A DNA stretch of 64,000 bases from Octopus vulgaris. Its lineage: Eukaryota. This document shows positions 37,554 through 43,500 of the stretch, in pieces. The position numbers were made by a program. The stretch spans positions 43,648,001 through 43,712,000 of the forward strand of contig OX597818.1 of NCBI GenBank assembly GCA_951406725.2, read 5' to 3'. Each line of letters begins with the position of its first letter. The stretch's first letter is position 1.

Positions 37554-40500
37554 ATGTATGTATTATGTCTGTCTGTCTGTCTTGTATGAAAACAAAATAG
37601 CAATTAAAATAAGACTGTGCCCAATTAAATTCAAATGTATGATTTAAAATACATACCTATTTGGTCCAACCCTAAATTATGTTTCTGTATCAGCCACTGG
37701 AACCATCTTTTTAAAACTGCAAATTCAAGACCATTTAAATCTTTACTGAAAAGAAAATATATATAATTGAACCCAGTGTAAAATGTTCAGAAATCTTCAA
37801 AGAATTTCACCACACCAGAGTTTAATCACTTCTAGATTAACATTCCTACCAATCACAGGGTTAACATACATTTTTCTGTATGGTAAATAGGTCTGTAATG
37901 CATGAGCTTTCCATATGACTCAATTTATTTATACCTGATGTGTGCAATACAATTTTCTAAGGTATAATAAAACTATTTCATCTCAAGTTGTTTTTATCCT
38001 GTGTATCCACCACTAAGACAATGCTTGCACATTTAATGCAGTGTGCCACTAGTATTGGCAATGGTGGTGGTGAAGGTGTTGGTGGTGGTTTGAATCATTA
38101 GATAGCTTGTTACCTAGATGATGTAATTAGTGTTGAAGGCAATTATAGGGAGATTACTGTAGCAAGAATATGAAAAGGATGTAAATTTTAAACAATTGCA
38201 GTGTGGAAGGTGTTTATAAGCCATTTAAGAAACACACAAAAACCGTTAGGTTCACTTCAACATTTAAATTTAATTTGTCAAAACATTTTCGTTGCTTTGA
38301 GACCGCAATCTGTTCACTGACAAAACTTTGTGCTGCACAAACATCGTTCCAGCACACGATCTCAGATCAAGTCACTCGCTATGCAAGTACATCTCCGTAA
38401 GGTAAATTTTACTTCTCTATTTTTTGATTGTGGCTGACTTGAAGTTATCAGCTGGCTTGACTGATAACTCCAAGTTTGTGAACCATAATACTTTCTAAGT
38501 GTTAGTCTCCACTTGTCATTAGGGGTCTTAAACACATGCTCAGATGAGGACTGACCTTTATTGGAAACCCTACATGATGTTAGGTTTCAAAACATGCAAA
38601 GGAGAGGCAATCTTCATAAAACCAGATTCCTCTTTGTCCATGCTTCATTGTAAAACTGCTACATAGTTAATTGGTGTAGACAAAAGTGTAACAAATTACA
38701 TCTTTGATACTCCAAATATCAATACATGTTAATTATATTTCAAGCACTTCATATTTCTATGTAGTTTTTTTTTTTAATTGGTTTGTTTAAAACAGCAATA
38801 ATATTTTTCAGAAATAGCCTTACCTTAAAAAATTGTTTCTGATAAAGCAATGGTAAGTGCTAAACACTGAGCGTTCAAGCATCCTCACAGTTTTAGTCTG
38901 AAATACACATAAACACCTGATTAAAAACCATTTTAACACTAACATCATCTGTGCATTTATTGATTCTTATCAAACAACAAGATATATATACATACTTATA
39001 TATATATATATTTTTATATATATATATATATATATATCAATAATGAAGGGTGAAAATAATTAATTAATTTAGAAATAATCATTAATTTCACCAAGTAGAG
39101 TTCGGCATGTAAAAGACCCATTCAAGGAAGGTTTAAGTAATACTAAGTGATTAAGGGTTCAGCAACGATTTGCCTCACCACACACCGAATTTAGAAATAG
39201 CAGTCAAAAAGTTTTGGCTATTCTTTCTACTTAAAAGGGGGATCCGAATAAAACCAAAGCACTTAAAAAACAAACGGCGCAGGCAAAAGAGAAAGAAATT
39301 ATGAAAATCATTCTATACTAAGTTACCTACGGACGGACGTTTTGGAATTATATATATATAATAGTAGGGAATATAATTCCAAAACTTCCAAGGAAAAATT
39401 CAATTTAACAATTTTAAATCAAATTGCACAATATATATGTATATAATTTAGAGAAAAACCACTATTAAACAATTCAATAAAGAAAGATATTATTCACACC
39501 ATATAGAAAACGTAAGCTATAAAAAAAACTTATTTTAAATCAATAAAGTACAATAAATAGTAAATAGTAGTAAAAAGACCACAAACATTTCATGGCTATA
39601 TTTTCAAATAGATAATAATAATAAAATCAATTCGATTCAAAATTAAATCAAACTAAAATTAATTCTATTTAAAAATATAGCTACTCATCAGGTCTAAGAT
39701 AATAAATAATAAAAAAATAACAATAGAATAAATGTACTTAACTTATACTAATTATATAAAAAAATACGTGTATTAACTATAAATAATCGAAAAGCATTTA
39801 ACAATATTTCTTAAAATAGAAATATAACTTATCTTGTCGAAGGATTTTCATTAACTAACAATTTAAATGTAAAATGTCAAACTTAGCGTTTATAGCATAT
39901 GTTTTCTATATGGTGTGAATAACATCGTTCTTTATTGAATTGTTTAATAGTGGTTTTTCTCTAAATTATATACATATATATATATATATTTTTTTTTTTT
40001 TTTCAATGGCGGCCCATTTTCGCGGGGTTCCACTGTTCCCTTCTCTCTCTCTCTCTCTTACGTTGTCTGCCATTCCCCCCTTCCATTGCTAAGAGCATTT
40101 TTAAGCCAGCCCGTCAGTTCAACCTTCGCATTCCCGGTGCACCCGCCCTTGCCCACCCCCACCACCAATACCGGATATCTCTATATTTTTGCTCCATCTA
40201 TACCGGATGTCGCTTCTCCCACCACCATTATAGGTGTCTACTCTTCGAACCCCCCTCTTCAATACGCTATTTCACCATGCATTACCCCTCTCTTGATATC
40301 CTACGTTCTACTTGCCTAGAACTTGTCATCATTTCTCTGAACCACCCCTCCCCACTGGTGGTCCCCTATATATTTCTGCCCCCCCCCCCACATAAAAAAA
40401 AAAAAAGCACCATCCGAACGTGGCCGATGCCAGACCCCTCTGGCACCTGTGCAGGCGGCACGTAAAAAATACCCACTACACTCGCAGAGTGGTTGGCGTT

Positions 40501-43500
40501 AGGAAGGGCATCCAGCTGTAGAAACACTGCCAGACTAGACTGGAGCCTGGGGCAGTCCCTAGCTCCCCAGACCCCGGTCGAAACCGTCCAACCCGTGCTA
40601 GCGCGGAAAACGGACGTTAAACGATGATGATGATGATGATGATGATATATATATAAGAAACAAGTTAGAAACAATGATCATTACATATAATTCCTCTATT
40701 TGAGCAAATTTGGCTTACAGTTATTCCCAGTAGTCATTAAAGGTACATTACTGATAGGTTGCCCGAATAAAGGAATTATATTTAACGACCATTATTTTAA
40801 ACTTGTTCCTTACATATCACTCTGTGTAAAAACCAGTTTATCTGGAGCCCATCCATGGATTTACAATATAGAATTGTGATCAACTATAACCTGGGACCCA
40901 ACCAAAAGATCACCTGGAGTTCTTCACTAATTTAGGTAATATTGTTAGTCTGATGTGCCAATAGAGAGCTCAAGAAGTATTTTGCCTGGATTGATAATTC
41001 CTCACTATTTGTTCTATATATATATATATCATTATCATCATCGTTTAATGTCCGCTTTTCATGCTGGCATGGGTTGGATGATTTAACTGAGGACTGGCAA
41101 ACCAGATGGCTGCACCAAGCTCCAATCTGATCTGGCAGAATTTCTACAGCTGGATACCCTTCCTAGTGCAAACCAATCCGAGAGTGTAGTGGGTGCTTTT
41201 TTGTGCCACTGGCACGAGGGCCAGGCAGGTGGTACTGGCAACAGTCATGGAAAAATCGTTGTTTTTTTTTATGTGTCACCTGCACACCAGCACAAATGCC
41301 AGTAAGTAGGTAGATATATGGTTGCCCCAGGTGGAAAGAAAGATGGGTCAAGAAACATCCTCAAGTTATAGGAAGGTGAATGTAAGAGAAGTAAAGTTGG
41401 TGTTAGAAAAAGCATCCAGCCATAGAAATCATGCCAAACCAGACATTGGAGTTTGGTGTTATTCTTTGGCTTGCCTGCTCCTGGTGAATCTCCAACCCAT
41501 GCCAGATGTTAAATGATGATGATAATGATACACAGATGGCCAGAATTAGTCATCACAAGACAAGAATTTTATCACTTAGGAGAATCTGTAGAAGGGCCCT
41601 GTCACTTGTTTTGTCATGAGTAATGAATGAAATAATCCAATGTATCAGACTAAGAATTTTTTTTCTTTTAGTTTCTCACTTGAGGCCTGGTATGCAAGTC
41701 AACTCGGGTCAGTAATGCATGGCTGTTAAACGTGAAACTCCACCGTGACGGATCTTGATACAGTTGTTCCTAAGAAAAAAAAGTTTAAAAAAATGAAACG
41801 TCATTTTCTTTCAGAAATTAGTTTGTTGATAGAATGTGTTAGTAACAAAATTTGTGCATTAACAATTATATAAGGTTAATTACAACCAGCATAATTAGAA
41901 ACATCTTTAGAAAAACAAATAGAATCCTTCATTCTCAACACTGCCACTGTCGTCGCTGTCATCGTCATTATTATCATATAGCATCTGTTTTCCAAGCTAG
42001 CATGGGTTATGATGGTTTGACTGGAATTGGTACTAGATTCCAGTCTGATTTGGCTTGGTTTCTATACTTGGATGGCCTTCCTAATGCCAACCACAGGTGA
42101 CTTTTAAGTGTCAGTGGCACAGGTGCTTTTTATGTGTCATCAGTACTAGCCATGACTATGATTTCACTTGGCTTCATGAGTCTTCTGAAGCACAGCAAAT
42201 CACCAAAGGTCTCAATCACTTGTCATCACCTCCGTGAAACCCAACATCCGAAGAACATGCTTCACCACCACGTCCCATGTCTTCCTGGGTCTACCTCTTC
42301 CACAAGCGCCCTCCATGGTTAGAAACTGACACTTCTTTACACAGCTGTCCTCATCTATAAGCATCACATGACCATACCAACACAGTCTTCTCTCTTGCAC
42401 ATCACATCTGATGCCTCTTATGCCCAATTTTTCTCTCAAGTTGCTTACACTGTATCATACATGAACATTCATTTTGCTACAGTTGAAAACCTTACATTTA
42501 AGGAGTTGCACATTTTGAAACAGAAGAATAGGCTCAAATAAAATGGCCTGAAGTTAAACATAATCATTTGTTTCAAATAACCCCATGACAAAAAAATGGA
42601 ATCAATGATCTTTCCAGAGTCATAAGCTCATAAGGCTGGTTTTCCAGACTCTGTGGCATATATATATTCCCTAATACAGTTCTATATTTAAGAGATGAGG
42701 AATTATGTACATTATTTACATTCGACGGATATTTGTCCTCATCTTGTTTGTTGTTAGCACAACGTTTTGGCTGATATACCCTCCAGTCTTCTTCAGGTGT
42801 CTTGGGGAAATTTCGAACTTGGGTTCTCATTCCTAAGGTATTCTTCATATGGCATAGTGGTTCAGAGTGTGGGCTACTAACCCCAAGATTCCGAGTTCAA
42901 TTCCAAGTAGTGACCTGAACAACAACAACGGCGGTGGCGACAACAACGATGACAACAACAACAACAATAATAATAATAACATCGAAGAATACCTTAGGAA
43001 TGAGAACCCGGTTCGAAATTTCCCCAAGACACCTGAAGAAGGCTGGAAGGTATATCAGCAGAAACGTTGTGCTAACAACAAACAAGATGAGGACAAATAT
43101 CCGTTGAATGTAAATAATGTATATATATATTCCGTCGGATAGAACACTGGTCTATTGTGAGATTACTCGTTTTTACCAGCTGAATGGATTGGAACAATGT
43201 GAAAAGAAGTGATTTGTTCAAGAACACAAAAGAATTGCCTGGTTCAGAAACCAAAAGCCACAATCTTACTCCAGTGCTGGTGTCATGTAAAAAAGCATCT
43301 GTGTTGTTGCTACGTAAAAAGCACCCAGTACACTCTGTAAAGTCATTGGCATTAGGAAGGGCATCCAGCCCATAGGAACCATGCCACAACAGAAGACTGG
43401 AGCCTGGTGCAGCCCTGTGGCTTGCCAGCTCCTGTCAAACTGTCCAACCCATGCCAACATGGAAAACGGATGTATGATGATAATGATGAGAGGTACAACA

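What the first reader, a model, noticed from the sequence alone, without database searches (positions are those of the whole stretch)
38824..41769. TK2-architecture kinase with a rewired, purine-kinase-like nucleoside pocket
Seen: the pocket helix reads Y-QDPSRW-SFTF-N-SH-A-LLT-R and the ERS segment reads ERSVFS-T-YHCF. Aligned to Drosophila dNK (FQSYVTLTM; ERSIFSARY), this gives Q81N (codon 41727-41725), V84A (41718-41716), M88R (41706-41704) and A110T (38858-38856). Established: TK2/dNK have Q/V/M/A at these positions and dCK has Q97/A100/R104/D133. Engineering V84A/M88R/A110D into Dm-dNK shifts it toward purines, and from memory Q81N also lowers thymidine use relative to purines. The P-loop, catalytic Glu and lid arginines are intact, so the gene looks functional. 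Inference: a TK2-lineage paralog that independently evolved dCK/dGK-like or novel specificity, i.e. a possible uncharacterised salvage enzyme.
Basis: partly seen in the sequence, partly recalled or inferred. Interest (0 to 1): 0.72.

Follow-up and report, generated by a model that had tools for sequence, protein, structure and literature searches.

The report
Octopus TK2-like kinase with remodelled base pocket
This is an intact octopus gene for a thymidine-kinase-2-like nucleoside kinase whose base-binding pocket differs at the residues known to set pyrimidine versus purine preference, a pattern shared by molluscs, worms and bryozoans, so its database name probably misstates its substrate.

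Summary
Exons at 41680-41769 and 38824-38897 (minus strand) encode ...RWSFTFNSHALLTR... and ...ERSVFSTYHCF.... Aligned to Drosophila dNK, these give Q81N, V84A, M88R and A110T.

They are exons 5 and 6 of an intact 10-exon, 252-codon gene spanning 28498-54528. Its Octopus bimaculoides orthologue is annotated "thymidine kinase 2, mitochondrial".

The signature is not an octopus oddity. 34 of the 264 family members I collected have N81. Of those 34, all have R88, 32 have T110 and 28 have A84. All 17 named ones are spiralians: molluscs, an annelid, a bryozoan and a flatworm.

With the four signature columns masked, these sequences form a clade (support 100/98 without two long-branch rows). It is separate from dCK/dGK. 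In the best tree it is sister to a canonical Q/V/M/A spiralian clade (92/92). Three gastropod species carry both types.

The AU test does not reject placing the clade next to dCK/dGK (p 0.16-0.37), so convergence of A84/R88 is favoured but not proven.

Catalytic residues are intact. Published dNK and dCK mutagenesis points each of the four changes toward purines. I therefore infer a purine-shifted deoxynucleoside kinase, which remains untested. Whether this octopus also keeps a canonical TK2 could not be checked.

The parts
54465..54528 (-). Exon 1: ATG and a basic N-terminal presequence (MFRVGNFRNLPYFCLQFYRKQ; 4 basic and 0 acidic residues)
   Evidence: tblastn of P0002; GT donor and phase. 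In the model of P0002, the segments below pLDDT 50 are residues 1-4 and 6-21.
49556..49623 (-). Exon 2: linker before the kinase core
   Evidence: tblastn; AG/GT sites and phase 1 entry.
44747..44821 (-). Exon 3: P-loop VSVEGNIGCGKTTLLNYF
   Evidence: Pfam dNK profile positions 1-27, E 6.4e-6; 25 of 25 identical to P0002.
43584..43637 (-). Exon 4: TMQEPIEQWINVDGHNSL, holding the catalytic Glu (dNK E52) and the stacking Trp (W57)
   Evidence: equivalences.
41680..41769 (-). Exon 5: pocket helix with N (41727-41725), A (41718-41716) and R (41706-41704)
38824..38897 (-). Exon 6: ERS motif, with T (38858-38856) in place of A110, followed by Y-H in place of R111-Y112
37657..37745 (-). Exon 7: (S)KDLNGLEFAVLKRWFQWLIQKHNLGLDQI
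35310..35389 (-). Exon 8: lid region YLKADPHLCFERLKKRCRKEEDPVPV (dNK R167, R169 and E172 kept)
   Evidence: Pfam dNK profile positions 125-152, E 1.1e-4.
34111..34191 (-). Exon 9: SLLENLHKIHEEWLIKQSYGPLPAPVK
28498..28581 (-). Exon 10: VIDTNLHLEKLFNVYEEEKSQILCRAL plus the stop codon
   Evidence: The ten exon lengths sum to 759 nt, which is 252 codons plus the stop.

Best explanation
Shown:
- The window carries an intact 10-exon gene on the minus strand (28498-54528) for a 252-residue deoxynucleoside kinase of the non-TK1 (PF01712) family.
- It is the octopod orthologue of a clade of TK2/dNK-like kinases found across Spiralia.
- That clade has Asn for the base-binding Gln81, Ala for Val84, Arg for Met88 and Thr for Ala110 (Dm-dNK numbering).
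- The P-loop, the catalytic Glu, the ERS arginine, the 3'-OH ligands Y70 and E172, and the lid arginines are unchanged.

Inferred:
- The enzyme is an active, probably mitochondrial, deoxynucleoside kinase.
- Its pocket has lost the hydrophobic cavity that fits the thymine 5-methyl (V84A, M88R).
- It has gained a guanidinium as in dCK and dGK (R88).
- It holds the base with a shorter amide (N81), which leaves room for a purine ring.
- I therefore expect it to prefer dG/dA, and perhaps dC, over dT. It would complement the canonical TK2-like paralogues that other spiralians also carry.
- The best tree points to a duplication within Spiralia followed by pocket remodelling that converged on dCK/dGK.
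For: - Gene model: 10 exons, all internal boundaries AG/GT, phases consistent, 759 nt.
- Orthologue: P0002 is O. bimaculoides 'thymidine kinase 2, mitochondrial isoform X1' and carries the same pocket motifs.
- Fold: the AF2 model of P0002 has pLDDT 90. Its best Foldseek matches are Dm-dNK structures, target-normalised TM-score up to 0.95.
- Residue equivalences and retained catalytic residues.
- Signature conservation: N81 in 34 of 264 sequences. Of those 34, R88 in 34, T110 in 32 and A84 in 28. All 17 named ones are spiralians.
- Where the clades differ: of 209 columns, only 6 separate the N-type (>=80% conserved) from the canonical type (>=70% conserved). These are dNK positions 69, 81, 84, 88, 110 and 155, so the divergence sits in the pocket.
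- Phylogeny with the four signature columns masked. TK2-like versus dCK/dGK is split at 100/99. All 27 N-type rows form one clade in the best tree at 63/99, and in 292 of 300 bootstrap trees when the long-branch row P0066 is ignored. Without P0066 and P0094, clade support is 100/98 and the sister group is an 11-row canonical spiralian clade at 92/92.
- Both types occur in Gigantopelta, Physella and Candidula.
- Mutagenesis, from passages of PMC11357392: V84A makes dC the preferred substrate; V84S+M88R+A110D gives dGK-like preference; V84A+M88R+A110D accepts purine analogues; Q81N favours purines; M88R lowers dC conversion to 34%.
- The reverse change in dCK (R104, D133) adds thymidine and deoxyuridine as substrates (passage of PMC3851323).
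Against: - No activity, expression or localisation data exist for any member of this clade in what I could search.
- Position 110 is Thr, not the Asp that pairs with the Arg in dCK and dGK. The engineered purine-preferring enzymes all carried Asp.
- Effects of single mutations in Dm-dNK need not add up in another background.
- Octopods carry further changes near the pocket with unknown effect (Y83H, R111Y, Y112H).
- The AU test does not reject a tree with the N-type next to dCK/dGK (p 0.368 with all rows; p 0.157 without the two long rows). A84/R88 could therefore be retained rather than convergent.
- If octopods lack a canonical TK2, this enzyme would have to supply dT/dC phosphorylation too. 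That could not be checked.
- The exons individually fall just under Pfam's gathering score (26.5, 23.4 and 22.4 bits against 27), as expected for fragments.
Confidence: 0.55

Rival explanations
1. It is simply the octopus TK2 orthologue, with the ordinary dT/dC preference the database name implies. On this reading the pocket substitutions are tolerated drift.
For: NCBI names P0002 and most molluscan members 'thymidine kinase 2, mitochondrial(-like)'. Overall similarity is highest to TK2/dNK. No second cephalopod family member appeared among the 20 hits or the 120 listed rows. If that absence is real, this gene would have to cover pyrimidines.
Against: Drift does not explain N81 and R88 being invariant in 34 of 34 members across several phyla. 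Nor does it explain why the clade-defining differences fall almost only on pocket residues. Canonical Q/V/M/A-type paralogues coexist with this type in three gastropod species. M88R and V84A reduce dT or pyrimidine use in Dm-dNK.
Confidence: 0.2
2. It is an active kinase with a specificity that is neither TK2-like nor dGK-like. Examples would be dC-only, truly broad, or directed at ribonucleosides or modified nucleosides. The N81/T110 pair, unseen in characterised enzymes, would be the cause.
For: N81 together with T110 is absent from the characterised dNK, dCK and dGK sequences in the alignments. Octopods add Y83H, R111Y and Y112H. The family shows other natural pocket variants: QVRN/QIRN in 13 of 264 sequences and E81 in 16 of 264. 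The pocket is therefore evolvable.
Against: All four substitutions have documented effects in the same direction, toward purines. The sugar-binding residues Y70 and E172 are unchanged, which argues for 2'-deoxyribonucleosides.
Confidence: 0.2
3. It is a member of the dCK/dGK lineage that only looks TK2-like, so A84 and R88 are inherited rather than convergent.
For: It shares A84 and R88 with dCK, and R88 with dGK. The AU test does not reject N-type plus dCK/dGK on one side of a branch (p 0.368 and 0.157).
Against: The eight dCK/dGK rows are split off at 100/99 or 100/100. The best tree puts the N-type sister to a canonical spiralian clade at 92/92. Identity to dGK is only 28-33%, against 42-56% to TK2-like proteins. 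The insertions seen in the three dGK-type rows are absent. Named members are confined to Spiralia (17 of 17), so an ancient origin would need many losses.
Confidence: 0.1
4. It is a pseudogene, an assembly artefact, or a non-catalytic nucleotide-binding relic.
For: None beyond the absence of expression data here.
Against: There is an open frame across 10 exons with canonical splice sites. Exons are 80-100% identical to the O. bimaculoides protein. All catalytic residues are present.
Confidence: 0.03

Closest known systems
Drosophila melanogaster multisubstrate deoxyribonucleoside kinase (Dm-dNK, PDB 1J90)
   Same: It is the best sequence match among solved structures (172 bits) and the best structural match (target-normalised TM-score up to 0.95). 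It has the same P-loop, E52, W57, Y70, R105, R167, R169 and E172. Like the octopus protein, it lacks the dCK/dGK-type insertions.
   Different: The pocket residues Q81, V84, M88 and A110 are N, A, R and T here. M69 is L. In octopods Y83, R111 and Y112 are H, Y and H.
Vertebrate mitochondrial thymidine kinase 2 (TK2)
   Same: It is the nearest named subfamily, 42-46% identical to frog TK2. It shares the ...HEEWLIK...PAPV... C-terminal motif. The octopus protein has a basic N-terminal extension. That human TK2 also has 10 exons is recalled, not checked.
   Different: TK2 has Q/V/M/A. The N-type forms a separate spiralian clade, whereas another molluscan group (Patella, Pomacea, Arion, Elysia, Physella) groups with vertebrate TK2.
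Deoxycytidine kinase and deoxyguanosine kinase (dCK/dGK)
   Same: Arg is at the M88 position, and a small residue (A or S) at the V84 position.
   Different: dCK and dGK keep Gln at position 81 and have Asp, not Thr, at position 110. They carry insertions absent here. Identity is only 28-33%, and they form a separate clade at 100/99.
Engineered Dm-dNK mutants (V84A/S + M88R + A110D; Q81N)
   Same: They carry substitutions at the same four positions, made in the laboratory. They shift preference from pyrimidines to purines (passages of PMC11357392, citing Knecht 2002, Solaroli 2003 and Solaroli 2007).
   Different: The natural clade combines all four changes and uses Thr instead of Asp at position 110. 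The combination has never been assayed. I did not see the original papers; Knecht 2002 is not held.

Membership tests
Non-TK1 deoxyribonucleoside kinase family (Pfam PF01712, dNK) | P-loop GxxGxGK[ST] at the N-terminus of the core | tested here: met
   GNIGCGKT in exon 3; Pfam dNK profile positions 1-27, E 6.4e-6.
Non-TK1 deoxyribonucleoside kinase family (Pfam PF01712, dNK) | Catalytic Glu (dNK E52), the ERS arginine (R105), and the lid R-x-R-x-E-E | tested here: met
   The alignment to 1J90 retains E52, R105, R167, R169 and E172. These columns are invariant across 75 sequences.
Non-TK1 deoxyribonucleoside kinase family (Pfam PF01712, dNK) | dNK fold | tested here: met
   The model of the orthologue P0002 has pLDDT 90. 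The top Foldseek hits are all dNK, dCK or dGK, E about 1e-20 to 1e-17. The window's own joined protein was not modelled.
Canonical TK2/dNK subfamily | Closer to TK2/dNK than to dCK/dGK, and lacking the dCK/dGK insertions | tested here: met
Canonical TK2/dNK subfamily | Pocket residues Q81, V84, M88 and A110 | tested here: not met
   N, A, R and T here. The exact QVMA combination was found in 57 of 168 relatives. Across 264 relatives, Q81 occurs in 208 and M88 in 150.
Canonical TK2/dNK subfamily | dT/dC phosphorylation | not testable with these tools
   Needs enzyme assays.
Canonical TK2/dNK subfamily | Mitochondrial targeting | tested here: inconclusive
   Exon 1 encodes 21 residues with 4 basic and 0 acidic side chains. 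This stretch is low-confidence in the model. No targeting predictor was available.
dCK/dGK subfamily | Q at 81, A or S at 84, R at 88 and D at 110 | tested here: not met
   A and R are present, but position 81 is N and position 110 is T.
dCK/dGK subfamily | Groups within the dCK/dGK clade | tested here: not met
   The eight dCK/dGK rows are split off at 100/99 and 100/100. Placement adjacent to them is not rejected by the AU test.
Spiralian N-type TK2-like clade (unnamed; defined here) | N81 and R88 invariant, T110 and A84 predominant, and a clade recovered with those columns masked | tested here: met
   Of the 34 N81 sequences: R88 in 34, T110 in 32, A84 in 28. Clade support is 100/98 without two long-branch rows. 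The octopus orthologue lies inside it, with Argonauta (100/100).

The most novel reading that the evidence does not exclude
Spiralian animals, cephalopods included, have a mitochondrial purine deoxynucleoside kinase that arose from a TK2-type ancestor. On this reading it rebuilt, in nature, the same four pocket positions that protein engineers changed to turn Dm-dNK into a purine kinase. It includes replacement of the base-binding glutamine, which is conserved in all characterised family members. In octopods, further changes (Y83H, R111Y, Y112H) and the possible absence of a canonical TK2 may have produced a specificity not seen in any characterised family member.
Probability: 0.35. Interest if true: 0.65.

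Novelty: new variant of a known kind. Interest (0 to 1): 0.5.

Why it matters
- Annotation: genes across several phyla are labelled 'thymidine kinase 2'. If the pocket change shifts specificity, that label is wrong about the substrate, and models of mitochondrial dNTP supply in molluscs, annelids and their relatives would need revision.
- Evolution: it would be a natural replicate of a classic specificity-switch experiment (Dm-dNK V84/M88/A110 and Q81). It would show whether evolution takes the same route as engineering.
- Application: the clade offers a set of natural enzymes for nucleoside-analogue activation and enzymatic nucleotide synthesis.

Tried and rejected
I used the 51-aa frame holding exon 7 instead.
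I scanned 150 stop-free frames instead, which found the lid exon. Exons 4, 7 and 9 were found with motif patterns.
- The first MAFFT run timed out. I repeated it with a faster setting.
- The listing of cluster members, meant to name ten unnamed representatives, was switched off. The taxa of the unnamed N-type and dCK/dGK-like rows stay unknown.
- Model coordinates are not exposed to scripts, so I could not measure pocket distances.
- Knecht 2002 (PMC125940) is not held. The mutagenesis facts come from passages of PMC11357392 and PMC3851323 only.
- Literature searches for this clade found nothing relevant. 'Q81N' with 'deoxyribonucleoside kinase' gave 0 papers. 'thymidine kinase 2-like' with 'phylogenetic distribution' gave 0. 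'deoxynucleoside kinase' with 'oyster' gave 2, both by their titles on herpesviruses. Searches listed nothing on molluscan kinases. The J Mol Evol 2014 survey of the TK2-like family, which I recall but did not see, may already describe this clade.
- dCK/dGK membership, pseudogene and assembly error were considered and rejected (see the rival explanations).
- The AU tests did not reject a position next to dCK/dGK, so I do not claim proven convergence.
- A search or fold with the window's ten exons joined was deliberately left out. The database orthologue P0002 was used for whole-protein steps.

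
Full report
**What is in the sequence**

The window is AT-rich, repeat-rich eukaryotic DNA with short exons.

On the minus strand, 41769-41680 reads EQLYQDPSRWSFTFNSHALLTRVDLHTRPQ. 38897-38824 reads TKTVRMLERSVFSTYHCFIRNNFL.
- AAC at 41727-41725
- GCA at 41718-41716
- CGA at 41706-41704
- ACT at 38858-38856

The frame holding the pocket exon matches Pfam dNK (PF01712) at E 5.8e-5. 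Against PDB sequences it hits only dNK, dCK and dGK chains (19 of 19). The ERS frame on its own gave no dNK hit in Pfam.

**The whole gene**

Motif scans and a Pfam scan of 150 stop-free minus-strand frames found further pieces:
- the P-loop (44747-44821)
- the EPIEQW exon (43584-43637)
- a middle exon (37657-37745)
- the lid exon (35310-35389)
- the HEEWLIK exon (34111-34191)

The frame holding the middle exon retrieved one database protein, P0002. It is 'thymidine kinase 2, mitochondrial isoform X1' of Octopus bimaculoides, 252 aa. A tblastn of P0002 against the window located ten exons at 80-100% identity, so the window comes from a related octopod.

All internal boundaries are AG/GT and the phases fit. 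The exon lengths sum to 759 nt, which is 252 codons plus the stop. Only one set of exons is present in the 64 kb.

Whole-protein steps used the database orthologue P0002. Its pocket exons are identical to the window's except for one residue at the end of exon 5.

**Residue equivalences**

The phmmer alignment of P0002 to wild-type Dm-dNK (1J90) gives:
- Q81=N102
- V84=A105
- M88=R109
- A110=T131
- R111=Y132
- Y112=H133

E52, W57, Y70, R105, R167, R169 and E172 are all retained.

Bit scores are 172 to dNK, 112-127 to dCK and 97 to dGK. An AF2 model of P0002 has pLDDT 90. Its best structural matches are Dm-dNK entries, followed by dCK and dGK.

**How widespread the signature is**

The word-indexed search with P0002 returned 20 proteins. 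They include Argonauta, Mytilus and Tegillarca proteins at 53-78% identity, echinoderm and frog TK2 at 42-46%, and dGK at 28-33%. In their alignment the cephalopod and bivalve proteins all read F-N-x-[YH]-A-x-L-T-R and ERS-x-x-S-T.

The exhaustive representative search found 6284 relatives. A profile search with the N-type alignment added named sequences: 491 hits at E <= 1e-20, of which the best 120 were listed.

Across the 264 sequences collected, 34 have N at position 81. Of those 34, R88 is present in 34, T110 in 32 and A84 in 28. The 17 named ones are:
- two cephalopods
- seven bivalve entries
- five gastropods
- the annelid Ridgeia
- the bryozoan Bugula
- the flatworm Macrostomum

Canonical paralogues also occur in spiralians. 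In three gastropods both types appear:
- Gigantopelta: P0177 is NART and P0212 is QVMA
- Physella: P0184 is NART and P0209 is QIMA
- Candidula: P0183 is NART and P0251 is EVLT

**Where the clades differ**

I compared the 34 N-type sequences with 145 canonical (Q81 plus M88) sequences over 209 columns. Only six columns are conserved within each group yet different between them. They are dNK positions 69, 81, 84, 88, 110 and 155.

Four of these are the known specificity residues. Position 69 lines the nucleoside site in dCK as Met85, which I recall rather than checked. The divergence is therefore concentrated on the base pocket.

**Phylogeny**

A quick tree of 76 rows gave a 26-row N-type clade at SH-aLRT 100. 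It sits inside the TK2/dNK side, and the split from eight dCK/dGK-like rows has SH-aLRT 96.

To avoid circularity I masked the four signature columns and ran the careful search:
- dCK/dGK versus the rest is supported at 100/99.
- All 27 N-type rows form one clade in the best tree, at UFboot 63 and SH-aLRT 99.
- The clade is monophyletic in 186 of 300 bootstrap trees.
- That rises to 292 of 300 when the very long branch P0066 is ignored.

Leaving out P0066 and P0094, the N-type clade has 100/98. Its sister is an 11-row canonical spiralian clade (Capitella, Lingula, four bivalves, Gigantopelta and others) with 92/92 at the joining node. This favours a duplication within Spiralia.

Against that reading, the AU test does not reject a tree holding N-type and dCK/dGK on one side of a branch. 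With all rows, ΔlnL is 4.5 and p is 0.368. Without the two long rows, ΔlnL is 11.5 and p is 0.157. Convergent origin of A84 and R88 is the better-supported reading but is not established.

**Mechanism**

Passages of PMC11357392 state the following for Dm-dNK:
- Q81 makes two hydrogen bonds to the base.
- V84, M88 and A110 form the hydrophobic cavity.
- V84A lowers affinity for dT and makes dC the preferred substrate.
- V84S+M88R+A110D behaves like dGK.
- V84A+M88R+A110D accepts purine analogues.
- Q81N favours purines over pyrimidines (citing Solaroli 2003).
- In that paper's own table, M88R drops dC conversion to 34%.

A passage of PMC3851323 states that mutating dCK R104 and D133 adds thymidine and deoxyuridine as substrates.

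All four natural substitutions therefore point the same way. With the catalytic and sugar-binding residues intact, I infer an active deoxynucleoside kinase shifted toward purines.

Caveats are the Thr, not Asp, at position 110, the untested combination of changes, and the octopod-specific Y83H, R111Y and Y112H.

The basic, acid-free first exon, low-confidence in the model, fits a mitochondrial presequence. This was not tested.

**What stays open**

- I could not determine whether this octopus also has a canonical TK2-like or a dCK/dGK gene. No second cephalopod protein appeared among the 20 hits or the 120 listed rows.
- In the held library I found no paper on this clade. The 2014 J Mol Evol survey of the TK2-like family is recalled, not seen, and may bear on novelty.

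**Verdict**

This is a real, intact gene. It is a member of a conserved spiralian variant of the TK2/dNK subfamily, defined by a remodelled base pocket. The functional shift is a well-motivated inference, not a result. I rate it a new variant of a known kind, of moderate interest.

Noticed in passing
window 46872-47674 (-), inside intron 2 of the kinase gene: There are remnants of a mariner/Mos1-type transposase split over several frames by stop codons. Pfam gives Transposase_1 at E 1e-15 (46872-47135) and HTH_48 at E 5.8e-14 (47489-47674).
   Followed up: partly
window 20344-20745 (+): A second Mos1-type transposase N-terminal frame: HTH_48 at E 7.9e-23 and HTH_32 at E 3.2e-9.
   Followed up: partly
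window 7589-7816 (-): A frame matches the C-terminal half of an RNA recognition motif (RRM_1, E 2.1e-5). It is probably an exon of a neighbouring gene downstream of the kinase.
   Followed up: no
window, many sites on both strands, e.g. 29560-29763 (-), 33910-34044 (+), 40466-40627 (+), 48287-48415 (+), 50939-51103 (+), 58948-59082 (-): A short interspersed repeat recurs. Its translation reads ...LALGRASSCRN[ST]ARS.... It is often next to trinucleotide runs, and several copies lie in the kinase introns.
   Followed up: no
relatives P0057, P0047, P0055, P0252, P0257, P0264 and others (not in the window): A different natural pocket variant, Q-[VI]-R-N with ERS-x-Q-N-N, occurs in 13 of 264 relatives, among them the crab Scylla. 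It is a second case of Arg at the M88 position within the TK2/dNK side.
   Followed up: no
relatives P0036, P0170, P0224, P0236 (cnidarians) and P0240, P0248, P0251 (gastropods): Glu replaces the base-binding Gln81 in 16 of 264 relatives, for example E-A-L-G in corals and Nematostella and E-V-[LM]-T in gastropods. The 'invariant' Gln is therefore replaced repeatedly in nature.
   Followed up: no
window exon 5 (41680-41769) and exon 6 (38824-38897); P0002 and P0003: There are octopod-only changes next to the pocket. Y83H is present, against Y in 28 of 32 other N-type sequences. The ERS segment reads S-T-Y-H where most other N-type members read S-T-R-Y or S-T-R-H.
   Followed up: partly
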